From a virus (taxonomy: Duplodnaviria; Heunggongvirae; Uroviricota; Caudoviricetes): a stretch of 14,669 nucleotides of DNA. Below, piece after piece: positions 342 through 13,673 of this stretch (within the stretch, counting starts at the first letter, position 1; each line of letters begins with the position of its first letter). The DNA lies in IMG/VR virus record IMGVR_UViG_2740892230_000033; one strand, written 5' to 3'. The position numbers and the translations under genes were made by a program. The notes below the pieces were generated by a model. The model did no database searches. It saw only the letters and a program-made list of their open reading frames with translations, and was not told where the DNA came from.

Positions 342-2373
342 ATGAGTACCACAACACGTAAATTTAAAACCATTATCACTGATACTGGTGCCAAAAAATT
401 AGCTCAGGCAGCCGCGCCAGATGGTAATCCTGTCCGCCTGACTCACATGGCCGTGGGCGACGGTGGCGGCACGTTGCCCACACCAGACAGTAAGCAGACC
501 CGTCTGGTGCATGAGGTGTGGCGACATACTGTTAATCGCGTCATCCTGGACGCAACACATCAGAACCGCATTATTGCGGAGCTGGTTATTCCTCCTGAAA
601 CGGGTGGATTCTGGATCCGGGAAATTGGTGTATTTGATGAGCACGGCGATTTAATCGCGGTGGGCAATACTGCCGAAAGTTACAAACCAACCGTTGCCGA
701 GGGGTCCGGACGTGCACAAACATTTCGCACCATTCTGACCGTATCCAGCACTGCCACCGTGGCGCTTACCGTGGATAACACCATGGTGATGGCCACAGTG
801 GATTACGTGAATGACAAACTGAAAGAACATGAACAGTCACGACGTCACCCGGACGCCTCGCTGACCGCAAAAGGCTTTGTTCAACTCAGTAGCGCCACTA
901 ACAGCACGTCTGAAGCACTGGCCGCAACGCCGAAAGCGGTCAAGACAGCCTATGACCTTGCTAACGGGAAATATACCGCNNNNNNNNNNTGCCACGACGG
1001 CACGAAAAGGAATAGCCCAGCTCAGTAGCGCCACCAACAGCGATTCAGAAACGCTGGCGGCAACACCAAAGGCGGTAAAGGCAGCCTATGACCTTGCTAA
1101 CGGGAAATATACCGCACAGGACGCCACGACGGCACAAAAAGGAATTGTCCAGCTCAGTAGTGCAACCAACAGCACATCTGAAACGCTTGCTGCAACACCG
1201 AAAGCAGTGAAAGCAGCTAATGACAATGCGAATGGTCGGGTACCTTCTGCCCGTAAGGTGAATGGTAAGGCGCTTTCGGCGGATATAACACTGACGCCGA
1301 AAGATATTGGTACGCTTAACTCAACAACAATGTCATTCAGCGGTGGTGCTGGTTGGTTCAAATTAGCAACGGTAACCATGCCACAGGCGAGTTCTGTTGT
1401 TTCAATTACGTTGATTGGTGGCGCTGGATTTAACGTCGGTTCACCTCAACAGGCAGGTATATCTGAACTTGTTTTGCGTGCAGGTAATGGTAATCCGAAG
1501 GGGATTACTGGTGCTTTATGGCAGCGCACATCGACAGGGTTTACAAATTTTGCCTGGGTCAATACATCTGGTGATACTTACGATATTTACGTTGCAATCG
1601 GAAATTATGCGACTGGTGTAAATATTCAATGGGATTATACCAGTAATGCCAGCGTGACGATTCATACGTCACCAGCATATTCTGCTAATAAGCCGGAAGG
1701 GTTAACGGACGGTACAGTTTATTCACTCTATACGCCATCAGAGCAGTTTTATCCGCCTGGCGCACCAATCCCGTGGCCATCGGATACCGTTCCGTCTGGT
1801 TATGCCCTGATGCAGGGGCAGACTTTTAACAAATCTGCCTACCCGAAACTTGCAGCCGCTTATCCGTCAGGCGTGATCCCTGATATGCGTGGCTGGACGA
1901 TTAAGGGCAAACCTGCCAGTGGTCGGGCCGTATTGTCTCAGGAACAGGACGGCATTAAATCGCATACCCACAGCGCCAGCGCATCCAGTACGGATTTGGG
2001 TACGAAAACCACATCGTCGTTTGATTACGGGACGAAAACAACCTCACTATTTGACTATGGGACCAAAACTACCAGTAACGACGGGAGTCACACGCATTCA
2101 ATACCAACATCAGATGGTGCAAACCAGGGGGGGAAAATTCCACTGACATCTGGGCGTCTGGCAACTCAATATACATCAGCAACAACAGGTTCCTCTGGCT
2201 CACATTCTCATACTGTAGGTATTGGTTCTCATCAGCACACTGTCGGTATTGGTGCACACACGCACTCCGTTGCGATTGGCTCACATGGACACACCATCAC
2301 CGTTAACGCTGCGGGTAACGCGGAAAACACCGTCAAAAACATCGCATTTAACTATATTGTGAGGCTTGCATAA
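342..2373 (+). CDS. H: P2 gpH-like tail fibre protein; the frame is broken by the N10 gap at 980-989 (track pieces 342..1028 and 877..2373)
   Basis: N-terminus [24 protein letters not shown] is typical of P2-type fibre N-termini; internal SSATNS[18 protein letters not shown] repeats; C-terminal HxH-rich segment ([33 protein letters not shown]); stop TAA 2371-2373 overlaps the start of the next gene. Confidence 0.85.
873..1240 (+). repeat. Three or more tandem coding repeats of about 100 bp in the tail fibre (unit encodes [32 protein letters not shown]); copy number is uncertain because the N gap falls inside the array
   Basis: Direct reading of the repeated nucleotide and peptide units at about 873-979, 1015-1116 and 1144-1236. 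Confidence 0.8.
980..989. other. N10 scaffold gap inside the tail fibre repeat array; shifts the reading frame
   Basis: Run of 10 N; flanking sequence belongs to the repeated SSATNS units. Confidence 0.95.
1999..2082 (+). repeat. About 2.5 copies of a 30-bp coding repeat (GTKTTSxFDY) in the distal tail fibre
   Basis: Peptide [25 protein letters not shown] and the matching nucleotide periodicity. Confidence 0.7.
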
Positions 2374-2951
2374 TGGCATTCAGAATGAGTGAACAATCAC
2401 GGACCATAAAAATTTATAATCTACTGACCGGAACCAATGAGTTTATTGGTGAAGGTGATGCATACATTCCACCTCATACAGGTCTGCCAGCAAACAGTAC
2501 CGATATTGCCCCGCCAGATATTCCGGCTGGCTTCGTGGCCGTTTTCAACAGTGATGAGGCATCGTGGCATCTCGTTGAAGACCATCGGGGTAAAACGGTT
2601 TATGACGTGGCATCAGGGGACTCGTTATTTATTTCTGAACTCGGTCCATTACCGGAAAATGTTACCTGGTTGTCGCCGTATGGAGAGTATCAGAAGTGGA
2701 ACGGCACATCCTGGGGGAAAGATGCAGAAGCAGAAAAACTGTTTCGGATAAGGGAGGCGGAAGAAACAAAAAACAGCCTGATGCAGGTAGCCAGTGAGCA
2801 TATTGCACCACTTCAGGATGCTATAGATTTAGATATTGCGACGGAGGAAGAGACATCGTTACTGGCTGCATGGAAGACATATCGAGTATTGTTGCATCGT
2901 GTTGATACAACAGTAGCAGCAGATATTGAGTGGCCAGTCGCCCCACAATAA
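2373..2951 (+). CDS. G: Tail fibre assembly chaperone (P2 gpG / Tfa family); the 3' end is duplicated after the N gap, second stop at 3097-3099
   Basis: 192 aa ORF, ATG overlaps the H stop (TAATG); N-terminus [34 protein letters not shown] resembles Tfa proteins; position directly after the fibre gene. Confidence 0.8.
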
Positions 2952-2959
2952 AAAGAAAA

Positions 2960-2969
2960 NNNNNNNNNN
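2960..2969. other. N10 scaffold gap; 2821-2959 is repeated at 2970-3108 with a few substitutions
   Basis: Direct comparison of flanks. Confidence 0.95.
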
Positions 2970-3103
2970 CGTAGATTTGGATATTGCGACGGAGGAAGAG
3001 GCATCGTTACTGGCTGCATGGAAGACATATCGGGTATTGTTGAATCGTGTTGATACAACAGTAGCAGAGGATGTTGAGTGGCCAGTCGCCCCACAATAAA
3101 AAG

Positions 3104-3135
3104 AAAAAGCCATCGATAGAAATATCGATGGCTTT
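3104..3135. terminator. Bidirectional rho-independent terminator between the convergent gpG and acetyltransferase genes
   Basis: AAAAA, then a perfect 10-bp stem GCCATCGATA / TATCGATGGC with loop GAAA, then TTT; A-tract and T-tract flank the hairpin so it can terminate on both strands. Confidence 0.8.
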
Positions 3136-3142
3136 ATGTACT

Positions 3143-3877
3143 CTATTTATACAATACAGCACCGCTCTTTTTAGTTATATATGTGCAGTTCGATGGTATA
3201 TCTTTATTTATAAAAGACATTGCACCTATTTTTACATTATCCCCAATTTTACGGGATAATCCAATGATGCAACAATTAGCTCCGATATCAACGTTGCTAC
3301 CAATTTTTACTCTTGAACCAGGTATGTCACCATCTATCTGTCCAATGGTCGTATTCTGTCGTAACACCAGATTTTCACCAGCATCAACAGCAAAATGAAC
3401 AACAATTCCAGCATNNNNNNNNNNACTACCAATTTTCACTCTTGAACCAGGCATGTCACCATCTATCTGTCCAATGGTAGTATTCTGTCGTAATACCAGA
3501 TTTTCACCCGCATCAACAGCAAAATGAACAACAATTCCAGCATGATGGGGAATTGTTAACCCTTTTCCAATATTTGCGCCCAATCCAATTTCGCAACCAA
3601 ATTTGTTAATTATTTTACTGTTTAACTTCTTGGCTGCTTTCTTATGTAATTTATTACCATTAATATACATTTCGTTAGCCAACCGCCACCAGAAAAGGAA
3701 ATTCCTGTTACGCTGCTTTTTCTCTCTTAAAAGCCTCCAGATATCCATACGTTTCCGCCGAATTACTTCATGTTTCCAGAAGTTTTTTAAATTAGTAGAG
3801 TTCCCAAATAAAACAAAGTGAATTGCCATTAGGTAAGACAGCACGATAATCTCCTTAATTATTATTTCAGACCACAC
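3143..3877 (-). CDS. Hexapeptide-repeat (left-handed beta-helix) O-acetyltransferase, WcaB/CysE-like; low-GC cargo gene. The true start is probably the internal GTG at 3844 (AAGGAG 6 nt upstream) or the ATG at 3829; the ORF is lengthened by the duplication around the N gap at 3415-3424
   Basis: Motifs GCEIGLGANIGKGLTIPHHAGIVVHFAVDAGENLVLRQNTTIGQIDG and NVDIGANCCIIGLSRKIGDNVKIGAMSF match the serine/colanic-acid acetyltransferase hexapeptide pattern; AT-rich relative to flanking phage genes. Confidence 0.7.
   Translation of the reverse strand: MWSEIIIKEIIVLSYLMAIHFVLFGNSTNLKNFWKHEVIRRKRMDIWRLLREKKQRNRNFLFWWRLANEMYINGNKLHKKAAKKLNSKIINKFGCEIGLGANIGKGLTIPHHAGIVVHFAVDAGENLVLRQNTTIGQIDGDMPGSRVKIGSXXXXAGIVVHFAVDAGENLVLRQNTTIGQIDGDIPGSRVKIGSNVDIGANCCIIGLSRKIGDNVKIGAMSFINKDIPSNCTYITKKSGAVLYK
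3415..3424. other. N10 scaffold gap; about 3297-3414 is repeated at about 3426-3543 with a few substitutions
   Basis: Direct comparison of flanks. Confidence 0.95.
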
Positions 3878-4000
3878 ATGTTATAAGGTTAAGAGATTAT
3901 AAAATCCTGTTGTTTATTATTCAAAAACAATTTTCTGAGAAGGACATACAACAGCAAGTCGCCAGTCACCTTCATCAGGAAATTGGCGACATACGTTAAA

Positions 4001-4495
4001 TCAGAGCAGCCCCTTAACTGAGCTGGCCGCGCTATTAAGGGATGATGTCACCTTATCTTTGAAGCCGGACAACATATCGCTGAACGATGAGGATTGCAGG
4101 CGCTCCCGCAAATCCTCATCACAGCGTTCAAGAGTCAGTGAAAATTCTATCTTTTTCGCCTTACCGTAGCGATCAAACTCGGAACGGGTCGTATTCGTTT
4201 CAGTCAGTACATACATGCCGTAAATCTGCCCGACACCATCAATCAGAGGCCAGGGCCGTCCTGTATATGCCTGCGTGGTCAGCAATGAAAGCGACACTTC
4301 GCCACCTGTAATTTCAGGATAAAGCACGCCGGAAAGCACAATGCGATCATCACCTGCACCGATATACTGCCAGCTTGCTGAACGGTTAACGCGTTCATTT
4401 TTCACATGCCGCCAGCTTTTGTTTTGCTGTAACTGCTGATGCGGCAATGTGCGCAGCTCAAAAACAAACATGCCGTAGATCATCATCATGACCAT
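4001..4495 (-). CDS. U: P2 gpU-like tail protein
   Basis: 164 aa; N-terminal FVFELRTLPHQQLQ and WPLIDGVGQIYGMYVL resemble the gpU family; sits immediately downstream of the tape measure gene on the minus strand. Confidence 0.8.
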   Translation of the reverse strand: MVMMMIYGMFVFELRTLPHQQLQQNKSWRHVKNERVNRSASWQYIGAGDDRIVLSGVLYPEITGGEVSLSLLTTQAYTGRPWPLIDGVGQIYGMYVLTETNTTRSEFDRYGKAKKIEFSLTLERCDEDLRERLQSSSFSDMLSGFKDKVTSSLNSAASSVKGLL

Positions 4496-4501
4496 GACTC
4501 C

Positions 4502-7500
4502 TCAATCTTTATCGTAAAAACTGCCACGTCCGGCACGGGCGCGCCGTTCCATCTCTGCCCTGACCATTTCACCGACCAGTTTCGCCAGTTCGCGGGGATT
4601 CTGCGTAACAACGTTATGCAGATGAACATGAATTTCACCACCAAATCCGGAGGCAACAGGCTCCCGGTTACGGGAAGTTGCAGGCACTGATGCTACTGGT
4701 GATCGTATGGCCTCCGCCACCGGGCGGGTGCTGGCCGCAACAACAGGGACCAGCGCCGGAGGCAGCGGAGCCGAGACCACGGGTGTGATATTAATTGCGG
4801 GGGCAGGCTTACTGACCTGCGCAATCTTCTGCTCCTGCCACTCCCCACGAACAGCAAGTGCGCGGGGCAGGTTCTTAAAGACAATATCGCCGGGGCCAAT
4901 GCGTTTTTTCGTCTCATCAACCAGCTTACCTGTGTTATCAGCAATTTTGCTGAGTCTGCGTAGCGTCCCGGTATTGCTGTCTGTGAGCGGTTTGTTGTCT
5001 TTGGGTTTATCACCTCCGGTGCCATTGCCATTTTCTACAGGCTTTGGCGGATTGATTTTCGCAATGTCTCCCTGAAACAGAGCAACCTTGTCCTGAAGAA
5101 TGGCCGCACGCTGTGCGTCTTCGATTTTCTTGCGCGCCCTTTCCGCTTCATCCGGAAGGACACCAAGTTTTTCAAGTATCCACGCCAGCGTATCCAGTAG
5201 CATTTTTGCAGGTGTCAGAACAAGTTGTAACGCACCGCCAAGAACGTTACCGAATACCTCGCCAGCACTGGTGCATTTATCCAGCGTTTCCTTGCTGGAC
5301 TCCATCGNNNNNNNNNNCACACCGAGTTTTTCAAGTATCCACGCCAGCGTATCCAGCAACATTTTTGCAGGCGTCAGAACAAGCTGTAACGCTCCACCAA
5401 GAACGTTACCGAATATCTCGCCAGCACTGGTACATTTATCCAGCGTTTCCTTGCTGGACTCCATCGGTGACAACAGCGATTTAAACCAGTTAAACACCAG
5501 GCTGATCCCGCTTCCGATTGCGTCAAAAACAGGGCCAAACCGTTCAAAGGTTTCACGCAACGGGGTCAGCCTTTCCATAATCCCGCTGAACACCCCGGCA
5601 AAAAATGCCCTGATGGGATCCCAGTATTTCCAGATAAGAACGGCAGCTCCGGCAAGCGCAGCAACGACAAGACCAACCGGACTGAACAACGCCCCGATAG
5701 CGCCTCCCAGTAAAGAAACGGAACCCGTCACCATTCCCCATAGCGCAGGCAACACCCTGACGACATTCATTGACCGGGTAAGAATGTCAAAACCAATACG
5801 CAAGGTGGCCAGCTTCCCGTAAAGCACCCCANNNNNNNNNNCACGATAAGACCAACCGGACTGAACAGCGCCCCGATAGCGCCACCCAGCAAAGAAACAG
5901 AACCCGTCACCATTCCCCACAGCGCAGGCAACACCCTGATGACATTCATTGACCGGGTAAGAATGTCGAAACCAAGACGCAAGGTGGCCAGCTTCCCGTA
6001 AAGCACCCCAATAACCAGCGACAACGAGCCAATCGTTGCAGTCATTGCCAGCAACGCACCGCCTGCTATCAGTAGCTGGCGCGTCAGTACCGGATGGGCC
6101 TGCGCCAGCGAGGTGATTTTTTCAAGCACCCGCGTGAGCCACTGCGTGACAGAACGCAGCGGACCGTCAACCAGATCACTGATGCGAATACGAAGACCTT
6201 CCCATGCGCTGTCGAGATTTTTCAGGTCTCCATCAAGATTATCGGCCATTACTTTTGCAACGCGATCGGCCTCTCCCCTTGCCCCCTGCAATTCTCTGGT
6301 CAGTTTTTGCAGTTCTCCTGAACCAGCCGCCGCAACAAGCGTCTGCAAACCAACGAACGCCTCTTCTCCGGCAATGTCCTTGAAGAAGGAGACCTGGTCC
6401 ACCTGTCCGTATTTTTGTGTCGCCTTATAGAGATCAAGCAGCACATCCTCCATCGGGCGCATTTTGCCTCTGGCGTCAGCAACTGACACCCCCAGCTCTT
6501 TCAGTGCATCAGCCGCAGCTTTTGGCGGTGATGCAAGGCGGGACAGACTTGCGCGCATGGCCGTACCAGCATCGCTTCCGCGAAGACCATTATTGGCAAG
6601 CATCCCGGCCATGGCCGCCGCTTCTTCAAGACTGATACCAAGTTTTGCGGCAACCGGACCGGTATACTTCATGGTTTCGCCCAGCGCGCGTAAATCAGTA
6701 TTGGTCCGGGTGAATGCTGCTGTCAGCGTATCGCCAACCCGGTCCATTTGATCGGCTGTCAGGTTGAACTGTGTGAGGATATTGGAGCCTATATCAGCCG
6801 TCTCGCCGAGTTCGACGCCACCTGCCAGCGCCATATTAAGAACACCGGGCAATGCGGCCTGAATGGCCTGCGGAGTAAAACCAGCCATTGCCAGAAAGCT
6901 CTGCCCACTGGCGGCATCACTCGCAGTAAACTGTGTTTCAGAACCAAGTTTTAACGCCTGCTCACGCAGCGCCTTAAACTGCGGGCTGTTTTTGTCGATT
7001 CGCGTCAGTGCCTGAACGCGGGACATCTCTTTGCCGAACCCGATCGCAGGCTGCAAAAAACGCCCGGCAGCATAGCCGCCAGCCGCTGCAGCACCAATTG
7101 CCAGCGCACCACCTGTTTTCAGTTTTCCCGCGGTTTCCTGCGCGCGCGAATACCGCTCACGCGCCCGCGTTACACGCGCAAGCGCCTGCCGTTCGCGTTC
7201 AAGCTGGTTGTTGTACTGTTCGGTGCGTCTGATGGCCTGCTGGATGGTGTTATCGCTGCCTGTCAGGGAAATGCCGTGGCGTTTCAGCTCTCCGCCAAGC
7301 TCCCGCATTTTCTGAATTTCCCGTGTGCGCGATTCATTCAGGCGTTCAAGCCGGGTGCTTAACTGCTGCATCAGCTTTTGTTGTTTTTCGCTGAGCACTG
7401 TACCCGTGCGTTGTAACTGATTAAGGGCGTTAAGCTGGCGTCGTGCTTTCACGATGCCAGCATCCGCTTTACTGACAGCGTCACGGGCGCGCTCAAATGA

Positions 7501-7656
7501 ACGCGCCTGACGCTCGAGATTTTTGATCGCCCCCTGCGTTCGCTGGATGGAGTCACCAAACTGCCCCATCAGGCGGCGGGCGTTTTCGGCAGGCCGGGTC
7601 AGCCTGTCAACGGCGCTGAAAGCGACCCGGATATCAAGAGTCTTCATTATCTGCAT
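4502..7656 (-). CDS. T: Tail tape measure protein (P2 gpT-like); reading frame broken twice by N gaps at 5308-5317 and 5832-5841 with duplicated flanks (track pieces 5767..7656 and 4502..5920)
   Basis: Long coiled-coil-rich N-terminal half, central glycine/alanine-rich hydrophobic segments and overall size typical of tape measure proteins; positioned between the E/E' chaperone and gpU. Confidence 0.85.
5308..5317. other. N10 scaffold gap; about 5159-5307 is repeated at about 5318-5466 with a few substitutions
   Basis: Direct comparison of flanks. Confidence 0.95.
5832..5841. other. N10 scaffold gap; about 5664-5831 is repeated at about 5842-6009 with a few substitutions
   Basis: Direct comparison of flanks. 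Confidence 0.95.
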
Positions 7657-8172
7657 TCCCGCTGCGAAGTGCCGCCCGCTCGCGCCAGCTAACCACTTCG
7701 CCGGGCGTCATCATGAAGATTTCGGCGGGCGACCAGTTAAAAATGGCGGCAATATCCGCCACCAGATCTTCGATGTGCTCAAAGCACACCAGGGTGATTA
7801 CGCTGCCGTCTCCTGCACGCTCTTCGCGCCAGAGTCTGGCTCGCTCATAAAATTTACAGCCACTGCGCACAACTGAATAAAATCGCGTGACGACATTTTT
7901 TTAATCATCACTTCATCCAGTCGTGGCGAGGTCACGCGAGGCAACAGCGTAAACATGGTATCCGCTTTCAGATTCAGCACATCAGACAGCGACAGACCAC
8001 GCAGGGATCCCGCCTGCTCAATAGCCCCGGTGATCTCCACATATGTGATTTTTTCGGCACCACGCTCAATTGGCCGGGAAAGTTTTACACCACGTTCGAC
8101 AGCCATATCCTCACCTGACGTCACATCATCCGCTACGGTGTTATTCCGGGTTTCAGTATCGATATCTTTCAT
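7634..8172 (-). CDS. E: Tail assembly chaperone gpE (7798..8172) and its -1 frameshift extension E' (frame of ORF 7634..7870), giving an E+E' fusion product
   Basis: Two overlapping minus-strand ORFs between the tube and tape measure genes; an A7 run at 7896-7902 in the E frame (ATT AAA AAA ATG) where a -1 slip enters exactly the frame of ORF 7634..7870. Confidence 0.7.
7896..7902 (-). other. Candidate programmed -1 ribosomal frameshift site (AAAAAAA) joining E to E'
   Basis: Frame arithmetic: E codons start at 7902 and 7899; shifting back one nucleotide gives codon starts congruent with the 7634..7870 ORF. Confidence 0.6.
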
Positions 8173-8227
8173 CAGTTGTCTCCTTTTCAGTCAGAGGCGA
8201 CGCACTGCGCCGCCTGCATATTACTTA

Positions 8228-8740
8228 TCAGCCAAGCCCAAGCGCGGAACGGATACGGTCAGGCACAATGTCCTTGCCGTCCTTCCGGTAGATGTGGTTC
8301 AACAGGTCGATTTCCCACAGCGGGCGATCGTTAACGCTCAGCTTGTAGTAGGTGTTTTTGACAGCGTAAGTGTGTGATGTGGCTTCGCCCTGTTTGGCTT
8401 CCCCCATATCAATTTCCGTCACACGCCCGCGCATCTCGATTTCATACAGATCGCTTTCTGCATCGGTGTAGTATTCACCCGCAAAACGCAGCAGCGTGCC
8501 GTCAATCGTGCCGCCATATTTAAGGAACAGCGCACGAACAGCTCCCCCCATGACAAAACTCGCATCAAGCGCGGAGTCGTCCAGACCGAGATCAATACTT
8601 ACCGCCCCCATCATGCCACCACCACGATAGCTGTCGGTTTTGCGCGTCAGTTTGGGCGGCGTGACGGATGTCACTTTACCCACTTCGTTTTCACCATCCA
8701 CAAACAACGTAAAAAAGCGAAGATGTTTTGGTACAGCCAT
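8228..8740 (-). CDS. FII: Major tail tube protein (P2 gpFII-like)
   Basis: 170 aa; PPKLTRKTDSYRGGGMMGAVSIDLGLDD and LRFAGEYY motifs match the P2 FII family as I recall it. Confidence 0.9.
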   Translation of the reverse strand: MAVPKHLRFFTLFVDGENEVGKVTSVTPPKLTRKTDSYRGGGMMGAVSIDLGLDDSALDASFVMGGAVRALFLKYGGTIDGTLLRFAGEYYTDAESDLYEIEMRGRVTEIDMGEAKQGEATSHTYAVKNTYYKLSVNDRPLWEIDLLNHIYRKDGKDIVPDRIRSALGLG

Positions 8741-10062
8741 CAGGCACCTCCCAGCACCGCAAATGCGGGACCAAAGAATTCATCAGTAAACGTCTGGTAA
8801 AGCTCCATGTCTTCCAGTGGCGGAACGGGCGTATATTTGTAGCGAATACGCACACGCCCCTGACGTAAATCCGTGGTGCTGTTATCCACCACGTCATACC
8901 AGCACTCCGCGCCTATCAGTTTCCCGGCAGTAACCAGTGAATCCAGCTTTGCCCTGATGGCACTGATTACATCCTTCACGTTCGCAGGCGTCAGTGGACT
9001 GTCGATGGTTTCAAACTGCGCTTCCGCAATTGAATCAGCCAGCACCTGTGCGGTTCGGGTATACACCTCAAAGATGTAGGCGTTCGTTTCCGGTGTGCGG
9101 TTGCCCCAGAAGCGGAACCCGTTGCGACGAATAATGGTCGTGATTTCTTTGTTGTTGAGGCTATTGGCATCGCTGTCTTCGGCCTGCAACGACCAGAACA
9201 CATGCCTGGACATTCCCAGCACATTTTTAACCGGAACGTTGGACAGCGATTTGTGCCAGCCCTGCTCATGGTCAATGCACGCACGAAGGCCGCACGCATA
9301 AGCAGGCGCGGGGAACGTTTCGTTTTTGCCACTTTNNNNNNNNNNCGACATCCCCAGCACATTTTTAACCGGAACGTTGGACAGTGATTTGTGCCATCCC
9401 TGCTCATGGTCAATGTACGCACGAAGGCCGCACGCATAGGCAGGCGCGGGGAACGTTTCGTTTTTGCCACTTTTCGGGTTGTAGGCGATGAAGTCCGGCC
9501 ATAAGAGCATCACCTCACGTTCGTTGAATTTCTGGCGGTAGGTAATCGCCTCAGCCATCGTGTTACAGCCGTGACATGAGGCATACACAAACGCGCGCAG
9601 TTTACCTGCAATCACGCACAGGGATTTTGTTACAGCCTCCGTGTCCAGCTCCGGCGCGGCCAGAATACGCGGACGGTATCCGATGCTTTCATCCTGCTCT
9701 GCAACAAGCAGCGCATACATCCCCGTATAGCTGCCGTCATCCTCAGAACCACCGATAACCAGTTGATCCTGCGTCTTTCCGTCTTCTTCTTTGTGTTCAG
9801 CCACGCGAACGACGATCACCTTTGTGCTCACCTGGTCTGCGATGGCCTTAAGCGCACGATAAAGCGTCCCCGTTGTCCCGCATTTTCCCAGCACGTCATT
9901 GACGCGGGTCAGCAGTGTGGGCTTATTCAGCGGGAACAGCTTCGCGTCCGCATCATCCGCCGTTGCCACGATACCGATAACGCTGGAATCAACATCGTTA
10001 ATCGCTGTTACCAGGTCGGTATTTTCCGTAACACGGGCACCATGAAAACGAGTTTCACTCAT
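8740..10062 (-). CDS. FI: Contractile tail sheath protein (P2 gpFI-like); lengthened by about 43 codons by the duplication around the N gap at 9336-9345
   Basis: Motifs FPLNKP, LRAFVYAS, EQGWHKSLSNV, RRNGFRFWGNRT and YKYTPVPPLE are characteristic of P2-type sheath proteins. Confidence 0.9.
   Translation of the reverse strand: MSETRFHGARVTENTDLVTAINDVDSSVIGIVATADDADAKLFPLNKPTLLTRVNDVLGKCGTTGTLYRALKAIADQVSTKVIVVRVAEHKEEDGKTQDQLVIGGSEDDGSYTGMYALLVAEQDESIGYRPRILAAPELDTEAVTKSLCVIAGKLRAFVYASCHGCNTMAEAITYRQKFNEREVMLLWPDFIAYNPKSGKNETFPAPAYACGLRAYIDHEQGWHKSLSNVPVKNVLGMSXXXXSGKNETFPAPAYACGLRACIDHEQGWHKSLSNVPVKNVLGMSRHVFWSLQAEDSDANSLNNKEITTIIRRNGFRFWGNRTPETNAYIFEVYTRTAQVLADSIAEAQFETIDSPLTPANVKDVISAIRAKLDSLVTAGKLIGAECWYDVVDNSTTDLRQGRVRIRYKYTPVPPLEDMELYQTFTDEFFGPAFAVLGGA
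9336..9345. other. N10 scaffold gap; about 9209-9335 is repeated at about 9346-9473 with a few substitutions
   Basis: Direct comparison of flanks. Confidence 0.95.
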
Positions 10063-10219
10063 AGCTTCAGCCCCTTGTATCCGTTAAATGATTCGGCAAC
10101 AATCATCACCCACCACGTGCGTAATCTCACCCCTGCGCCGTTCTCCCGCCACGGCGACAACAAAAAGCAGTAACCCCCTCCGCACGCACATGCGACCATG
10201 CCGCACAGGGAGGGAACAG

Positions 10220-11329
10220 ATGACCGATACCACCATGCAATTGCTCAGTCAGGGCACAGACCCCGTGAAAATGCCGGATTTTGATATTCTCGCGGAGGGT
10301 AAAACGCTGTCAGGCGTGGCAGAGCGCCTGATGAGCCTGTCACTGACCGACAACCGGGGATTTGAGGCGGACCAGCTCACCATCACGCTGGATGATGCGG
10401 ATGGTCAGTTGCAGCTACCGCCACGGGGCGCGCGCCTGACGGTTCTCATTGGCTGGAAAGGAGAACCGCTGACAGAAAAAGGCACTTACATTGTTGATGA
10501 AATCGCTCACGAAGGACCGCCGGACAGGCTGACTGTTTCAGCCAGAAGCGCAGATTTTCGGGATGAATTTAACGTTAAACGTGAGGTGTCCTGGCATGAT
10601 GTGACCGTTGAGCGCGTGGTATCTGCCATCGCTCATCGGTACGGTCTGAAACCGCAAATCAGCGAAATGCTGATGGATATCGAAATCGACCACGCCGACC
10701 AGACCGAAGAAAGCGATATGTCCTTCCTTACGCGCATGGCGGAAATGCTGGGCGCAATCACCACGGTAAAAAGCGGCAATCTGTTATTCATCATGCCAGG
10801 TGGTGGCGTGAACGCACAGGGCCAGCCGTTGCCCTCGTTCGCCATTACACGCAGCAGCGGCGATCGCCATCAGTTCCGTATTGCTGACCGCGAGGCGTAT
10901 ACGGGGGTACGCGCCTACTGGCTTGATCTTAATTACGGGAAAAAGAAAAAAGTCAGCGTGAAACGCCGTAAACCGCCAAAACCCAAAAAGGAGAAAAGCA
11001 GCAGCCGTGAAGGTGATTATATGGAAGGCGCGGAAGGCAATGTGTTTGTGTTACGCAAGACTTATCAGAACGAGCAGGCAGCAAGACGCGCAGCGGCGGC
11101 AAAGTGGCAGCAGCTACAACGCGGAGCCGCATCATTCTCCATCACGCTGGCATGTGGTCGTGCAGAACTCTACCCCGAAATGCATGGCACGGTAACAGGA
11201 TTTAAAAGCGAGATTGATAATCAGGACTGGATTATTGCAAAAGCCGAGCACACCATCGATAACAGCGGCTTTACCACGCAGCTTGAGCTTGAGGCAAAAA
11301 TCTCGGAATGGATAGCAGAAACAGAGTGA
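10220..11329 (+). CDS. D: P2 gpD-like tail protein (late control gene D family); transcribed divergently from the sheath gene
   Basis: ATG at 10220 preceded by GGAGGG; LSLTDNRGFEADQLTITLDDADGQLQLPPRGARLTVLIGW-type N-terminus resembles gpD family proteins; followed by ogr as in P2. Confidence 0.8.
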   Translation: MTDTTMQLLSQGTDPVKMPDFDILAEGKTLSGVAERLMSLSLTDNRGFEADQLTITLDDADGQLQLPPRGARLTVLIGWKGEPLTEKGTYIVDEIAHEGPPDRLTVSARSADFRDEFNVKREVSWHDVTVERVVSAIAHRYGLKPQISEMLMDIEIDHADQTEESDMSFLTRMAEMLGAITTVKSGNLLFIMPGGGVNAQGQPLPSFAITRSSGDRHQFRIADREAYTGVRAYWLDLNYGKKKKVSVKRRKPPKPKKEKSSSREGDYMEGAEGNVFVLRKTYQNEQAARRAAAAKWQQLQRGAASFSITLACGRAELYPEMHGTVTGFKSEIDNQDWIIAKAEHTIDNSGFTTQLELEAKISEWIAETE

Positions 11330-11371
11330 GCAACTTAGAATAGCAGCAGCACCACGTTAAGGGAGGTCGCT

Positions 11372-11731
11372 ATGTTCCGTTGTCCGCTTTGTGGCGCATC
11401 TGCCCGTATCCGCACCAGTCGTCCTGAAAATGATTCAAACACCGTGCGGCAAAAGTATTACCAGTGTAACAACCTGGAATGCGGCGTATGCTTCTCAACA
11501 CTGGAAGCTTTCCATAAATTCACATCAAAACACACCTCCGGCGTTCACTCTTCAGAAGGTATCCCGTGGCATGAGCTGCCAGCTTCACACAGGGGAAACA
11601 ATCAGATGANNNNNNNNNNTACATCGAAACACGCCTCCGGCGTTCACTCATCAGAAGGTATCCCATGGCATGATCTGCCAGCTTCACACAGGGGAAACAA
11701 TCAGATGAGTTTGCCTTTACCTCAGAATTAA
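11372..11731 (+). CDS. ogr: Ogr-type zinc-finger late transcription activator; about 30 codons are duplicated around the N gap at 11610-11619 (de-duplicated length about 86 aa)
   Basis: MFRCPLCGASARIRTSR...YYQCNNLECGVCF has the Cys-x2-Cys ... Cys-x4-Cys arrangement and N-terminal similarity to P2 Ogr; SD AAGGGAGG upstream. Confidence 0.85.
   Translation: MFRCPLCGASARIRTSRPENDSNTVRQKYYQCNNLECGVCFSTLEAFHKFTSKHTSGVHSSEGIPWHELPASHRGNNQMXXXXTSKHASGVHSSEGIPWHDLPASHRGNNQMSLPLPQN
11610..11619. other. N10 scaffold gap; about 11521-11609 is repeated at about 11620-11708 with a few substitutions
   Basis: Direct comparison of flanks. Confidence 0.95.
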
Positions 11732-11922: not shown

Positions 11923-12055
11923 ATGTCGCAAAAATCGCTTACGGCCATCACGTTCTGCGTGACGGTAATCCTCATCATCTGGATGCTACACGGTTCGCTG
12001 TGTGAAATACGGATGAGCTTCTGGGGAGCGGAGTTTGCGGCGTTCTTACAGTGTA
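11923..12055 (+). CDS. Hok/Gef-family type I toxin homolog, copy 1; the 3' end runs into the N gap at 12056
   Basis: MSQKSLTAITFCVTVILIIWMLHGSLCEIRMSFWGAEFAAFLQC: transmembrane segment followed by the LCE[IL]R ... E[FI]AAF signature of Hok proteins; SD AAGGAG 8 nt upstream. Confidence 0.65.
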
Positions 12056-12065
12056 NNNNNNNNNN
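12056..12065. other. N10 scaffold gap between the two hok-like copies; here the flanks are paralog-level diverged, not near-identical
   Basis: Direct comparison of flanks. Confidence 0.95.
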
Positions 12066-12120
12066 CTTCTTACCTTCGCAAGTAGAAGGTTAGCGCCTCT
12101 CCTCTCAGGAGACAAGCGTT

Positions 12121-12510: not shown

Positions 12511-12708
12511 ATGACGCAAAATGTACGATGCAAAAATTGCAACAAACTACTTGCCCGCGCCTCATTTCACTACATTGAAATAAAATGTCCGCGCTGCAAA
12601 ACACTTAACCAGATAACGAGAGCCATCGAGCACCCCACACACATGAGGAGTTATGACCGTGGGGATCGCAATCCAGCACCAACCAGCACATACACCGGAA
12701 CACACTAA
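12511..12708 (+). CDS. com: Com-like zinc-finger translational activator (phage Mu Com homolog)
   Basis: MTQNVRCKNCNKLLARASFHYIEIKCPRCKTL...EHPT closely matches the Mu Com pattern RCKNCNKLL...HIEIRCPRCK...EHPT; SD AAGAGG 9 nt upstream of the ATG at 12511; the 3' end overlaps the start of the next gene. Confidence 0.75.
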   Translation: MTQNVRCKNCNKLLARASFHYIEIKCPRCKTLNQITRAIEHPTHMRSYDRGDRNPAPTSTYTGTH

Positions 12709-13444
12709 GGTTTATCAGACTGACAATGCCACGCTCTGTCGTGGGAATGCGCTGGAAATATTGCCGCTGATTGAGCCAGAAAGCATTGATGCCTTAATCA
12801 CTGACCCGCCTTACAGTTCGGGTGCGACACACAAGGCCGGACGCACCAACCAGGGCAGCCATGCAAAATATCTGAACGGCGAGAACCTTCACCGCTTTGA
12901 TGGGTTCGCGGGTGAAAACATGGACGCCCGTTCGTGGGCTTACTGGACACAATTATGGATGGCACAGGCACACCGCGCAGTCAGGCCGGGCGGTTATGCC
13001 CTGGTATTTACTGACTGGCGACAACTACCAGCTTTAACCGATGCGTTTCAGGCCAGTGGCTTTACATGGCGCGGCATCATTGCGTGGAACAAGGGGAGGG
13101 GGTCACGAACACCACATACCGGGTATTTCCGGCATCAGTGCGAATACATCGTCTGGGGCAGCAAAGGCCATTTAGATAAATCGCCTTCGGGACCGTTCGA
13201 CGGCTGCATGACGTTCCCGGTTATCCCGTCAAAGAAAATGCACCCGACCGGAAAACCAGAAGAACTAATGGTGGAACTGGTCAGGACTGTGAATAGTGGC
13301 GGGACAATCCTCGATCCTTTTATGTGGTCAGGGACAACGGGTGTGGCTGCACTGAAAGCAGGACGCAAATTTATTGGTATAGAAACCAGTGATCATTATT
13401 TTGATGTAGCAACACAACGGCTCAAAACGGCGATCGAACCATAA
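12653..13444 (+). CDS. Beta-class amino (N6-adenine or N4-cytosine) DNA methyltransferase; the start may be the GTG at 12659 (GAGGAG 8 nt upstream) rather than the ATG at 12653
   Basis: DPPY (motif IV) near the N-terminus and DPFMWSGTTG (motif I, AdoMet binding) near the C-terminus; this order is typical of the beta subgroup. Confidence 0.85.
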   Translation: MTVGIAIQHQPAHTPEHTKVYQTDNATLCRGNALEILPLIEPESIDALITDPPYSSGATHKAGRTNQGSHAKYLNGENLHRFDGFAGENMDARSWAYWTQLWMAQAHRAVRPGGYALVFTDWRQLPALTDAFQASGFTWRGIIAWNKGRGSRTPHTGYFRHQCEYIVWGSKGHLDKSPSGPFDGCMTFPVIPSKKMHPTGKPEELMVELVRTVNSGGTILDPFMWSGTTGVAALKAGRKFIGIETSDHYFDVATQRLKTAIEP

Positions 13445-13450
13445 GACAAA

Positions 13451-13468
13451 GCCCGCAATGTTGCGGGC
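13451..13468 (+). terminator. Hairpin after the methyltransferase gene; weak T-tract, possible terminator
   Basis: GCCCGC AATGTT GCGGGC followed by TTACTCT. Confidence 0.45.
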
Positions 13469-13673
13469 TTACTCTACCTCTCGAAAATGTGGTCACTGCG
13501 TGGACATACGCTGATACAAATCCTTTTATATCAATAAATTAAATCTTTGTTTTTTTCATCAACAAGGATTTTCACGTTTGTGTTACCTGTATGAGACGAG
13601 AGTTAACCGGACAAGTGTGCCATAATCTCGCGGCCAGGCATACTTGCGAAGATTTCAGGTATAAGGATACGTA

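What the first reader, a model, noticed from the sequence alone, without database searches (positions are those of the whole stretch)
3100..4000. Low-GC hexapeptide acetyltransferase as single-gene cargo at the P2 Z/fun position
Seen in sequence: one AT-rich gene on the opposite strand, convergent with gpG across a perfect bidirectional terminator and with its own AT-rich upstream region (3878-4000), encodes a WcaB/CysE-like left-handed beta-helix acetyltransferase. Established knowledge: the interval after gene G in P2-like phages is the Z/fun locus, a variable cargo site reported to carry anti-phage and lysogenic-conversion genes. Inference: this acetyltransferase is horizontally acquired cargo, plausibly modifying a surface polysaccharide (receptor masking or superinfection exclusion) or acting as a defence effector; a lone hexapeptide acetyltransferase in this slot is not a function I can assign.
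Basis: partly seen in the sequence, partly recalled or inferred. Interest (0 to 1): 0.65.

Follow-up and report, generated by a model that had tools for sequence, protein, structure and literature searches.

The report
Prophage acetyltransferase linked to tail-fibre cassette
A small, foreign-looking acetyltransferase gene sits alone between the tail-fibre and tail genes of a common P88-type (P2-like) E. coli prophage; it is widespread and annotated but untested, most likely acetylates an envelope sugar (LPS core is the best guess) rather than making cysteine, and it moves between phages attached to the tail-fibre assembly gene.

Summary
The gene is real: a low-GC (36%; GC3 30%) minus-strand ORF, convergent with gpG across a strong hairpin. 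The window is a scaffold, so the ORF carries an artefactual in-frame 129-nt duplication around an N-run. The true protein is 190 aa (E. coli 55989 WP_000954200; O157 Sakai Sp13 ECs_2638). The backbone is Xuanwuvirus (phage P88 group), where FI-U is inverted, so the far neighbour is gpU, not FI. The slot is variable: empty, an invertible tfa'/fibre/invertase switch, this gene, or a 37%-identical transferase. The gene occurs in about 10% of complete E. coli genomes and in P1-like phage-plasmids. About 99% of copies abut the same tfa. In P1-like JL22 the fibre tip, tfa and acetyltransferase form one 2.5-kb homologous block. The protein has a confident CysE-like fold and keeps the catalytic His/acid pair. 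It lacks the serine-binding residues, fails the CysE, WcaB and EpsC cut-offs, and has no PADLOC hit. One homologue lies inside an LPS-core waa operon, another in a polysaccharide cluster. Best reading: a lysogen-expressed glycan O-acetyltransferase moron, untested. It is a new member of a known kind, of moderate interest.

The parts
3143..3844 (-). Acetyltransferase CDS. It starts at the GTG at 3844..3842 and stops at the TAG at 3145..3143. As printed in the window it is 702 nt including an artefactual 129-nt duplication. The true gene is 573 nt / 190 aa.
   Evidence: ORF list. Collapse of the duplicate stays in frame. It matches the 573-nt CDS WP_000954200.1 in E. coli 55989 at 98-99%. Coordinates were checked. 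Family and fold.
3297..3425 (.). Scaffold-join artefact inside the CDS: the first copy of a 118-nt duplicate (96% identical to 3426-3543) plus a 10-nt N-run (3415-3424).
   Evidence: the repeat finder family D2. N-run positions and the in-frame 129-nt shift. E. coli 55989 has a single copy.
3851..3856 (-). Shine-Dalgarno AAGGAG, 6 nt upstream of the GTG start.
   Evidence: Read directly from the sequence. The start agrees with the RefSeq annotation of the 190-aa protein.
3896..3924 (-). Sigma-70 promoter-like site TTGAAT-17 nt-TATAAT, in the AT-rich 156-nt spacer between the gpU stop and the acetyltransferase start.
   Evidence: Consensus scan, 10/12 matches. 7% of mononucleotide shuffles of the 219 nt upstream of the start score as well. 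Function is not shown.
3106..3135 (.). Perfect 13-bp stem / 4-nt loop hairpin between the convergent gpG and acetyltransferase genes. It is a canonical intrinsic terminator for the minus (acetyltransferase) strand and lacks a proper U-tract on the plus strand.
   Evidence: Terminator scan called it on the minus strand only. Fold energies are -19.5/-18.8 kcal/mol, z -6.9/-6.5. Hairpins of different sequence recur between the acetyltransferase and tfa in divergent loci L084, L086, L090 and L093.
2373..2951 (+). gpG, the tail fibre assembly protein (tfa, 192 aa), which is the constant partner of the acetyltransferase. Its last 136 nt are repeated at 2972-3107 after an N-run (artefact). The second copy runs into the real intergenic hairpin.
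   Evidence: ORF. Annotated tfa in 55989. Duplicate D1. 572 of 575 acetyltransferase-bearing records have this tfa adjacent.
1305..3836 (.). Mobile block shared with a P1-like phage-plasmid: the C-terminal part of tail fibre H, then tfa, hairpin and acetyltransferase.
   Evidence: Continuous 87-97% blastn homology to Escherichia phage JL22 (Punavirus), ending at the acetyltransferase start. JL22 annotation.
877..2373 (+). Tail fibre gpH. The reading frame is broken near 980-989 by an N-run; the true gene starts at 342.
   Evidence: ORFs 342..1028 and 877..2373. The 55989 homologue is one 2016-nt 'phage tail protein'.
4001..4495 (-). gpU tail protein, the last gene of the inverted FI-FII-E-T-U tail operon. 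It is upstream of, and co-oriented with, the acetyltransferase.
   Evidence: ORF. Annotated 'phage tail protein' in 55989 and labelled GpU in PhiR44_2. Pfam Phage_P2_GpU on the gene at the same position (between tape measure and acetyltransferase) in L190. Homology to acetyltransferase-less prophages ends at its stop codon.

Best explanation
The gene is a moron: an autonomously transcribed passenger gene of a P88-type (Xuanwuvirus, P2-like) prophage. It encodes a 190-aa acetyl-CoA-dependent O-acetyltransferase built from a five-helix N-domain and a left-handed beta-helix, presumably a trimer like its relatives.

Proposed mechanism:
(1) The gene is transcribed in the lysogen from its own sigma-70-type promoter in the AT-rich spacer after gpU, and terminated at the hairpin it shares with gpG. 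This step is inferred.
(2) The enzyme uses the conserved His100 and Glu/Asp general-base pair, as CysE does. This step is inferred from homology.
(3) The acceptor is not L-serine. [quoted passage not shown] LPS core oligosaccharide is the best single guess; ECA, colanic acid or an O-unit are alternatives. This step is inferred from the contexts of homologues.
(4) The result is lysogenic conversion of the cell surface, which could change adsorption of phages that use that glycan and change immune recognition. This step is inferred.

The gene spreads by recombination through the conserved tfa gene, which is why it is found attached to tfa in different phage backbones. This is shown at the level of sequence homology.

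Graded confidence: acetyltransferase that is not a cysteine-pathway SAT ~0.8; envelope-glycan acceptor ~0.5; LPS core specifically ~0.3.
For: FOLD AND CHEMISTRY.
- The AF2 model has pLDDT 91.3 and pTM 0.87, with helices 2-82 followed by a beta-helix.
- All top 50 Foldseek PDB hits are serine acetyltransferases (TMq 0.5-0.69, 17-31% identity).
- In the HMMER alignments to CysE structures, the catalytic His aligns with the nearly invariant family residue H100. CysE's Asp in 'VDIHP' aligns with a conserved E/D.

NOT A SAT.
- CysE's 'DH' is 'PH' here, and that position is variable and non-acidic across the family.
- The 'DRHPK' loop is variable, with the His position gapped.
- Scores are cysE 61.8 vs cut-off 210.65, EpsC 75.8 vs 150, and WcaB 53-54 vs 195-196.
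- No cys genes neighbour any homologue whose neighbourhood was listed or annotated.

GLYCAN CONTEXT.
- In Leminorella grimontii a 46%-identical member is the last gene of waaP-waaB-waaI-waaY-waaZ, convergent with waaL. WaaP, WaaB, WaaI, WaaY and WaaL score above their NCBIfam cut-offs; WaaZ passes TIGR04437 (402 vs 200) but not PRK09822 (420 vs 473).
- In a neighbour-joining tree it groups with the tfa-adjacent phiNP gene (53% identity), nested among phage-borne members.
- A 42%-identical Pseudomonas member lies between a GT2 glycosyltransferase and a UDP-sugar dehydrogenase.

MORON FEATURES. GC is 36% against ~50-54% in the flanks. There is a promoter-like site, an SD and a terminator. Presence/absence varies in an otherwise 95-99% identical backbone.

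LINKAGE TO tfa.
- 572 of 575 records have the tfa adjacent.
- The block is shared with P1-like JL22.
- A convergent tfa lies 10-60 nt downstream in 10 of 16 informative 90%-identity clusters. These lie on all major branches of the family tree.
- The P0008-type slot has an 87-aa tfa remnant next to the gene.

PRECEDENT. NeuO is a prophage-encoded LbH O-acetyltransferase of the K1 capsule (PMC3046976). Prophage acetyltransferases have been proposed to modify capsule in Klebsiella (PMC13123978).
Against: - No experiment exists for this protein. The JL22 authors state that the reason for its presence is unknown (PMC9603915). ECs2638 appears in the searched literature only in a gene-loss table.
- The acceptor rests on two homologues at 42-46% identity. 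Acceptor specificity in LbH enzymes can change at that distance.
- Most other-genus homologues are orphans with uninformative neighbours.
- Acetyltransferase and fibre tip do not co-vary tightly. Mantel rho is 0.44 (p 0.03), with discordant pairs such as L009 (acetyltransferase 35%, tfa 77%, fibre tip 71%) and L084 (84%, 67%, 6%). The tfa linkage may therefore be purely positional, reflecting a hotspot plus a recombination handle, and not functional.
- Only ~7% of places with this tfa type carry the gene.
- Promoter evidence is a consensus match in AT-rich DNA. Comparable sites are not found upstream of all divergent members.
- E. coli LPS core O-acetylation is not something I can cite as known.
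- The genome count is inflated by the many O157:H7 genomes carrying Sp13 (rows).
Confidence: 0.5

Rival explanations
1. It is a genuine serine O-acetyltransferase, an auxiliary metabolic gene that raises O-acetylserine/cysteine supply or induces the CysB regulon in the lysogen or during infection, as the database name implies.
For: The closest solved structures and the best fold matches are all CysE enzymes. The catalytic His and acid are conserved. RefSeq names it 'serine (O-)acetyltransferase'.
Against: It scores far below the cysE equivalog cut-off (61.8 vs 210.65; 36.8 vs 397 for the long form). The Asp preceding the catalytic His, which binds the serine amino group in CysE (established knowledge of E. 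coli and H. influenzae SAT structures), is Pro here and non-acidic across the family. The Arg-His loop is not conserved. The protein ends ...AVLYK, without the C-terminal Ile tail that docks CysK (own knowledge). The N-domain is about half the CysE length. No homologue neighbours cys genes, while two sit in glycan loci.
Confidence: 0.1
2. It is an anti-phage defence effector of the Z/fun hotspot that acts inside the cell, for example by acetylating a phage or host component to abort infection.
For: The G-proximal slot of P2-like phages is a documented defence hotspot. The gene is a low-GC single-gene cargo with its own promoter-like site.
Against: There is no match to any of 5027 PADLOC models, even at E<=1. 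phrog_2154 has no assigned function. Known acetyltransferase toxins are GNAT-fold, not LbH (own knowledge). Family members reside in housekeeping glycan operons. The gene follows tfa into non-hotspot contexts such as the P1 C-segment.
Confidence: 0.1
3. It is a hitch-hiker. The gene persists because it lies within 50 nt of tfa, a recombination handle at the end of the late operon, and supplies a terminator. Its enzymatic activity is of little consequence to phage or host.
For: The coupling is positional rather than specificity-matched. A tfa remnant travels with it. Only ~7% of tfa places carry it. Other family members sit at other typical moron sites: a prophage end next to hok, next to an integrase, and on plasmids.
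Against: The ORF is intact and conserved from 99% down to 35% identity, with invariant catalytic and structural residues, across many backbones and genera. That indicates purifying selection on the protein. It is present in roughly one third of this prophage type.
Confidence: 0.1
4. It modifies the virion, acetylating the tail fibre or its chaperone during assembly to tune receptor binding, which would explain the constant tfa adjacency.
For: There is tight adjacency to tfa or the tail fibre in at least four backbones. The gene is co-oriented with the FI-U tail operon, so late read-through is possible.
Against: It is convergent with H-G, not co-transcribed with them. CysE-like LbH enzymes act on small molecules or sugars. 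Homologues function in loci without any phage genes. I know of no precedent for LbH acetylation of fibres.
Confidence: 0.04

Closest known systems
NeuO, polysialic-acid O-acetyltransferase of prophage CUS-3 (E. coli K1)
   Same: It is a prophage-encoded soluble left-handed beta-helix O-acetyltransferase carried as a single accessory gene. It modifies a surface polysaccharide of the lysogen (PMC3046976).
   Different: It belongs to a different LbH subfamily. No chain named as NeuO or as a polysialic-acid O-acetyltransferase appears among the 38 PDB sequence hits at E<=0.01 or the top 50 fold hits, which are all CysE-type. The gene here has no phase-variable heptanucleotide repeats. The backbone is P2-like, not P22-like. 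The acceptor is unknown.
CysE serine O-acetyltransferase
   Same: It is the best structural and sequence relative. It shares the N-terminal helical domain plus LbH architecture and the conserved catalytic His/acid pair.
   Different: The protein fails the equivalog cut-offs. The serine-binding Asp and the Arg-His loop are not conserved. The N-domain is shorter, there is no CysK-docking tail, and there is no cys context.
WcaB (colanic acid) and EpsC-type short CysE-like polysaccharide acetyltransferases
   Same: They are similar in size (160-190 aa), share the 'HH'-type motif in place of CysE's 'DH', and are used in lipid-linked glycan assembly. These are the best-scoring NCBIfam families after or alongside cysE.
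   Different: Scores are far below the cut-offs (WcaB 53-54 vs 195-196; EpsC 75.8 vs 150). The gene is not in a wca or eps cluster, so it is not an orthologue.
Classical seroconverting phage genes (Oac/OafA-type membrane acyltransferases, GtrABC)
   Same: These are prophage morons that chemically alter LPS and thereby change phage adsorption and antigenicity (reviewed in PMC12373910).
   Different: Those acetyltransferases are integral-membrane acyltransferase-3 proteins acting at the periplasmic side and usually lie next to int/att (own knowledge). This one is a soluble cytoplasmic LbH enzyme next to tfa.
Receptor-blocking genes linked to receptor-binding genes (T5 llp next to pb5; cor in phi80/N15-type phages)
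   Same: A small lysogen- or early-expressed gene sits beside the receptor-binding module and could protect against phages using the same receptor. This is an architecture-level analogy from my own knowledge.
   Different: Llp and Cor are lipoproteins or outer-membrane proteins that block FhuA, not enzymes. A matching of acetyltransferase type to fibre-tip type was tested here and is only weak.
P2 Z/fun hotspot cargo
   Same: It lies directly after gpG on the opposite strand, with variable occupancy among close relatives.
   Different: In this genus the far border is gpU, because FI-U is inverted. The commonest alternative content is an invertible tail-fibre switch rather than a defence gene.

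Membership tests
Left-handed beta-helix (hexapeptide) acyltransferase superfamily | Hexapeptide-repeat beta-helix fold | tested here: met
   The AF2 model (pLDDT 91.3) has short regularly spaced strands after residue 83. All top Foldseek PDB hits are LbH serine acetyltransferases. Pfam Hexapep alone is just below its gathering score (24.1 vs 27).
CysE serine O-acetyltransferase | Score above the curated equivalog cut-off (TIGR01172 / PRK11132) | tested here: not met
   61.8 vs 210.65 and 36.8 vs 397.
CysE serine O-acetyltransferase | Catalytic His and its partner Asp | tested here: met
   His aligns with the nearly invariant H100. The CysE Asp of 'VDIHP' aligns with a conserved E/D.
CysE serine O-acetyltransferase | Serine-binding residues (the Asp preceding the catalytic His; the Arg-His of 'DRHPK') | tested here: not met
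   'LDH' in CysE is 'IPH' here and variable and non-acidic in the family. The loop is variable, with the His position gapped. The roles of these residues are taken from established CysE structural work (own knowledge).
CysE serine O-acetyltransferase | Cysteine-pathway genomic context / CysK-docking C-terminal tail | tested here: not met
   No cys genes flank any homologue whose neighbourhood was listed or annotated. The C-terminus is ...AVLYK. The tail requirement is from my own knowledge.
WcaB colanic-acid acetyltransferase | Equivalog score and location in the wca cluster | tested here: not met
   53-53.7 vs cut-offs of 194.65/196. The gene is in a prophage, not in wca.
EpsC-type EPS acetyltransferase | Equivalog score | tested here: not met
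   75.8 vs 150.
phrog_2154 (phage protein family, function unknown) | Full-length profile match | tested here: met
   E 5.5e-87, residues 13-190 on profile positions 3-181 of 185.
NeuO-type prophage capsule O-acetyltransferase | Sequence or structure similarity to NeuO; phase-variable 5' heptanucleotide repeats | tested here: not met
   No chain named as NeuO or as a polysialic-acid O-acetyltransferase is listed among the PDB sequence hits or the top 50 fold hits. No tandem or direct repeats occur in 2400-4100 other than the two scaffold artefacts.
P2 Z/fun hotspot cargo | Lies immediately after gpG, opposite strand, with variable occupancy among close relatives | tested here: met
.
P2 Z/fun hotspot cargo | Bounded on the other side by FI (the P2 gene order) | tested here: not met
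   The neighbour is gpU. FI-FII-E-T-U are inverted, as in all Xuanwuvirus/P88-group genomes examined.
Known anti-phage defence systems (PADLOC-DB 2.0) | Match to any defence-system protein model | tested here: not met
   0 families at E<=1.
Lysogenic-conversion (surface-glycan modifying) enzyme | Demonstrated change of LPS, capsule or ECA chemistry, or of phage adsorption, in the lysogen | not testable with these tools
   Only indirect support: homologues in a waa operon and a polysaccharide cluster.
Xuanwuvirus (P88 group, Peduoviridae) prophage | Nucleotide identity and synteny of the tail module | tested here: met
   Window 4001-5300 is 94-96% identical to P88, P884B11, Shae_phiSM and PhiR44_2. 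The gene order is the same.

The most novel reading that the evidence does not exclude
The acetyltransferase and the tail-fibre tip/tfa form a portable two-part module, a receptor-binding tip plus a receptor-editing enzyme. The enzyme O-acetylates the LPS core (or another conserved envelope glycan) that this class of fibres binds. Any phage that acquires the cassette, whether P2-like, P1-like or other, then immediately makes its lysogen resistant to phages using the same receptor, and keeps its progeny from being lost on lysogen debris. This would also identify the first LPS-core O-acetyltransferase family in Enterobacterales.
Probability: 0.22. Interest if true: 0.7.

Novelty: new member of a known kind. 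Interest (0 to 1): 0.4.

Why it matters
The gene is one of the commoner uncharacterised prophage accessory genes in pathogenic E. coli (O157:H7 Sp13, O104:H4-lineage 55989, O55:H7, and P1-like phage-plasmids). It is probably mis-named in RefSeq as a cysteine-pathway enzyme. If it O-acetylates LPS core or another shared envelope glycan, it would be a widespread and overlooked source of surface variation. That variation could affect phage host range (relevant to phage therapy and typing), serology and innate immune recognition. It would also give a gene to the largely unassigned phenomenon of core O-acetylation. Its linkage to tfa shows how host-range cassettes carry passengers between unrelated phage backbones.

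Tried and rejected
(1) I checked whether the inverted FI-U block and the odd ORF length were one artefact. The inversion is real and typical of the genus. Only the 129-nt duplication is an artefact.

(2) The PADLOC scan for defence homology found nothing.

(3) I tested the idea that acetyltransferase type is matched to fibre-tip type. The correlation is weak (rho 0.28 for the tip, 0.44 for tfa) and there are clear discordant pairs, so a strict cognate-pair model was dropped in favour of positional coupling.

(4) I expected the tfa adjacency to hold family-wide. It does not. 13 members from other genera have no tfa nearby, and the 50-62% relatives sit by hok, by an integrase, or on plasmids.

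(5) A conserved promoter across divergent members was not found consistently.

(6) Literature searches for the locus tag, the protein accession, and combinations of prophage, hexapeptide, acetyltransferase and superinfection found no functional study.

I used P0001 (98% identical) instead.

Full report
1. WHAT IS IN THE SEQUENCE.

The window is the tail end of a P2-like prophage next to the host gene flk. Flk scores 505 bits against a cut-off of 353. The gene order is I, H, G on the plus strand; one minus-strand ORF (3143..3877); then U, T, E, FII, FI, all on the minus strand; then D and ogr on the plus strand.

The interval is strongly AT-rich. GC is 0.33-0.39 across 3151-3900, against 0.47-0.58 on either side. 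The CDS has GC 0.364 and GC3 0.304, whereas gpU and FII have GC3 0.545 and 0.585.

A perfect 13-bp hairpin (3106-3135) separates the ORF from the convergent gpG. It folds at -19.5/-18.8 kcal/mol (z about -6.5 to -6.9) on the two strands. Only the minus strand follows it with a U-tract, so it is a canonical terminator for the acetyltransferase and at best a weak one for G.

Upstream lie an SD (AAGGAG, 3856..3851), a GTG start (3844..3842) and a promoter-like TTGAAT-17-TATAAT site (3924..3896). All three sit in the 156-nt, 33% GC spacer after the gpU stop. The promoter call is a consensus match in AT-rich DNA and is not by itself evidence of function (6 sites found, 4.2 +/- 2.4 expected).

The window is a scaffold. 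It has eight 10-nt N-runs (980, 2960, 3415, 5308, 5832, 9336, 11610, 12056), and all eight interrupt reading frames (XXXX in the ORF translations). At the two I examined in detail, 118-136-nt direct duplicates of about 95% identity flank the N-run. At five more (5308, 5832, 9336, 11610, 12056), the 55989 coordinates of adjacent blastn pieces overlap in the same way.

One lies inside the acetyltransferase ORF (copies 3297-3414 and 3426-3543) and adds 129 in-frame nucleotides. Another duplicates the last 136 nt of gpG. Removing the duplicate gives a 201-aa ORF from the first GTG, or 190 aa from the SD-preceded GTG. That equals the 573-nt CDS annotated in E. coli 55989, to which this region is 98-99% identical with a single copy of each duplicated segment.

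3. BACKBONE AND SLOT.

The minus-strand orientation of FI-U is not an assembly error. It is present in E. coli 55989, in every sister prophage examined, and in the isolated phages P88, PhiR44_2 and Shae_phiSM. These are 94-96% identical to window 4001-5300 and belong to Xuanwuvirus, Peduoviridae. So the slot is 'after G', as in the P2 Z/fun hotspot, but it is bounded by gpU rather than FI. The cargo gene is co-oriented with the tail operon.

Occupancy varies, with at least five states:
- Empty (254 nt) in PhiR44_2.
- An alternative tfa', a tail-fibre C-terminal fragment and a DNA invertase in P88, Shae_phiSM and prophages of ST131, O145 and O15:H18 strains.
- This acetyltransferase.
- A 37%-identical 'transferase' in an O121 strain.
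- A 70%-identical acetyltransferase plus an 87-aa tfa remnant plus a SAM-methyltransferase.

In complete E. coli genomes, 495 records have the acetyltransferase and gpU together, out of about 1,400 with this gpU type. Homology to acetyltransferase-less prophages stops at the U stop codon. This supports 'horizontally acquired cargo in a variable slot'.

4. HOW COMMON IT IS.

The 901-nt interval is found in 530 of 5,426 complete E. coli genomes, 513 of them at >=80% coverage. It is annotated 'serine (O-)acetyltransferase'. The carriers include O157:H7 Sakai prophage Sp13 (ECs_2638), so the count is inflated by the many O157:H7 assemblies. The gene is also on 35 non-mobilizable E. coli plasmids, nearly all of ~70-100 kb, which is the size of P1-like phage-plasmids such as JL22.

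The protein cluster holds 1,530 member sequences, and relatives down to ~40% identity occur across Enterobacterales, Orbaceae and Pseudomonas. It belongs to phrog_2154, function unknown.

I found no functional study. The JL22 paper says that the reason for the gene's presence is unknown (PMC9603915). ECs2638 appears only in a gene-loss table.

5. THE GENE FOLLOWS tfa, NOT THE SLOT.

Of 575 E. coli records with the gene, 572 have the same tfa directly adjacent. The tfa type itself occurs at about 8,500 places, mostly in lambdoid cryptic prophages without the acetyltransferase.

In P1-like JL22, DNA homology to the window (87-97%) runs without a break from the C-terminal third of the tail fibre gene through tfa and the hairpin to the acetyltransferase start (window 1305-3836), and ends there. 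There the block sits inside the invertible C-segment. Citrobacter phage phiNP (45% identity) and Hafnia phage yong2 (35%) have the same convergent acetyltransferase|tfa arrangement.

I applied an HMM built from ten annotated tfa proteins to 80 viral contigs. Whenever sequence was available, a convergent tfa lay 10-60 nt downstream, for acetyltransferases from 99% down to 45% identity. After clustering at 90% identity, 10 of 16 informative clusters show it. These clusters lie on all major branches of a neighbour-joining tree of the family. A Buttiauxella member (67%) is convergent with a tail fibre gene at a prophage end.

The exceptions sit at other classic moron sites: after hok at a prophage end (57%), next to an integrase (62%), and on plasmids (50-53%). 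The 13 members sampled from other genera have no tfa nearby.

Co-divergence is only moderate. Spearman/Mantel rho is 0.44 (p 0.03) for acetyltransferase vs tfa and 0.28 for acetyltransferase vs fibre tip. There are discordant pairs such as L009 (acetyltransferase 35%, tfa 77%, tip 71%) and L084 (84%, 67%, 6%).

I therefore read the coupling as positional. The tfa-distal end of the late operon is a landing site, and tfa is a recombination handle; the tfa remnant is a footprint of this. A functional link to the receptor remains possible but is not demonstrated.

6. WHAT THE PROTEIN IS.

AlphaFold2, run with a 57-sequence alignment, gives a confident model (pLDDT 91.3, pTM 0.87) of five helices (residues 2-82) followed by a left-handed beta-helix. 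All of the top 50 Foldseek hits in the PDB are serine acetyltransferases (TMq 0.5-0.69, 17-31% identity). The best sequence matches are the same enzymes at E~1e-12, over the beta-helix and the last helices.

In those alignments the catalytic His of CysE aligns with the nearly invariant family residue H100, and the Asp of 'VDIHP' aligns with a conserved E/D. But the Asp that precedes the catalytic His ('LDH') is Pro here and variable and non-acidic in the family. The 'DRHPK' loop is also not conserved. From established CysE structural work, which I cite from my own knowledge, those are the residues that hold L-serine.

The protein scores far below the curated cut-offs for cysE (61.8/210.65), EpsC (75.8/150) and WcaB (53-54/195-196). 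It has no PADLOC match. So it works like a CysE/WcaB-type acetyl-CoA-dependent O-acetyltransferase but is not a member of any of those named families. The RefSeq name is probably wrong as a statement of function.

7. CLUES TO THE ACCEPTOR.

Two homologues sit in housekeeping glycan loci.

In Leminorella grimontii a 46%-identical, 190-aa member is the last gene of a Salmonella-type LPS core operon: waaP, waaB, waaI/O, waaY, waaZ, then the acetyltransferase, convergent with waaL. WaaP, WaaB, WaaI, WaaY and WaaL score above their NCBIfam cut-offs. WaaZ passes one of its two models (TIGR04437, 402 vs 200) but not PRK09822 (420 vs 473). This member groups with the tfa-adjacent phiNP gene (53% identity), inside the spread of phage-borne members.

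In a Pseudomonas species a 42%-identical member lies between a GT2 glycosyltransferase and a UDP-sugar dehydrogenase, with a second hexapeptide protein nearby.

No homologue neighbours cysteine genes.

[quoted passage not shown] Core O-acetyltransferases are unassigned even in Pseudomonas, where core O-acetylation is documented (PMC8005017). Fibres of the P2 H / Mu S / P1 S class commonly use LPS core as receptor (own knowledge). That makes an LPS-core acceptor attractive, but it is inference.

8. BEST EXPLANATION AND RIVALS.

The most likely reading is a moron expressed from the prophage that O-acetylates a lipid-linked envelope glycan and so converts the lysogen's surface. It spreads by recombination through tfa. 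My confidence is ~0.5 overall, ~0.8 that it is an acetyltransferase other than a SAT, and ~0.3 for LPS core specifically.

The rivals are:
- A true serine acetyltransferase (0.1).
- An intracellular defence effector (0.1).
- A selectively unimportant hitch-hiker of tfa (0.1).
- A virion- or fibre-modifying enzyme (0.04).

The remaining probability is for acceptors I have not thought of.

9. COMPARISON WITH KNOWN SYSTEMS, AND NOVELTY.

The closest characterised analogue in kind is NeuO, the CUS-3 prophage LbH O-acetyltransferase of the K1 capsule (PMC3046976). It is a different subfamily and is phase-variable, which this gene is not. Classical seroconverting acetyltransferases are membrane proteins next to int/att. 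A recent Klebsiella study reports acetyltransferases in 5-30% of prophages and suggests prophage-driven sugar modification, also untested (PMC13123978).

The gene is therefore a new, uncharacterised and probably mis-annotated member of a known kind.

The additions from this analysis are the tfa linkage across phage backbones, the exclusion of the SAT function on residue grounds, and the waa-operon homologue. Together they make a specific hypothesis directly testable.

Interest: 0.4.

Noticed in passing
window 980-989, 2960-2969, 3415-3424, 5308-5317, 5832-5841, 9336-9345, 11610-11619, 12056-12065: There are eight 10-nt N-runs. The two examined in detail (2960, 3415) are flanked by ~95%-identical direct duplicates of 118-136 nt, and coordinate overlaps against 55989 indicate the same at five more (5308, 5832, 9336, 11610, 12056). 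These are scaffold joins of overlapping, slightly different contigs. All eight put XXXX into ORFs: H, the region just past the G stop, the acetyltransferase, T (twice), FI, ogr and the hok region. Any ORF length in this window should be checked against a clean genome.
   Followed up: yes
window 4001-10062 (minus) vs 13-2951 and 10088-11731 (plus): The FI-FII-E-T-U tail operon is inverted relative to the P2 gene order, leaving FI and D divergent. This is real and shared by all P88-group (Xuanwuvirus) phages and prophages examined. How D and ogr are transcribed after the inversion was not examined.
   Followed up: partly
L006, L007, L008, L187 (P88), L189: the interval between gpG and gpU: In many sister phages the same slot holds a Mu-G/P1-C-like invertible host-range switch: an alternative tfa', a tail-fibre C-terminal fragment and a DNA invertase. 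The acetyltransferase and the invertible switch were never seen together in the eleven backbones whose slot I inspected.
   Followed up: partly
L190-L192 (P0008-type prophages), 4117-5105: A 70%-identical acetyltransferase is followed by an 87-aa tfa remnant and a 222-aa SAM-dependent methyltransferase (Pfam Methyltransf_12/25; no NCBIfam match), before the resident full-length tfa. This is possibly a second glycan-modifying passenger.
   Followed up: no
L107 (Leminorella grimontii ATCC 33999) 469-6815: The LPS core operon waaP-waaB-waaI-waaY-waaZ ends with a family member (46% identity), at the position where Salmonella and K-12 carry waaK/waaU (own knowledge), convergent with waaL. It is a candidate LPS-core O-acetyltransferase.
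   Followed up: partly
L018-L025 (P0039, 50% identity) and L196 (P0036, 53%): Family members occur on E. coli plasmid-type contigs among IS66 elements, an IpaB/EvcA-family chaperone gene, EspF fragments and psiA, or next to ProQ/FinO and ParA genes. The family is therefore not restricted to phages.
   Followed up: no
L001 (E. coli 55989 prophage) 5985-7865: A 626-aa DUF6645 protein gene is inserted between lysC and the tail-completion genes of the same prophage. This is another apparent cargo gene, outside the window.
   Followed up: no
window 11923-12093, 12653-13444, 13351-13650, 13674-14669: After ogr there is a hok/gef-family toxin gene, identified by 98.9% homology to the annotated hok of 55989 and interrupted here by an N-run. 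Next comes a 263-aa DNA methyltransferase (sub-threshold matches to adenine-methyltransferase models). Then there is a low-GC dip (0.41) that probably marks the prophage end, and then the host gene flk. Beyond ~12380 the window differs from the 55989 prophage, which is integrated elsewhere (next to tRNA genes).
   Followed up: partly
L002 (phage-plasmid JL22) 2456-9215: In JL22 the acetyltransferase lies inside the cin-invertible C-segment, between the two alternative tfa genes. Inversion would place it co-directionally downstream of the alternative fibre/tfa, so its transcription could depend on segment orientation.
   Followed up: no
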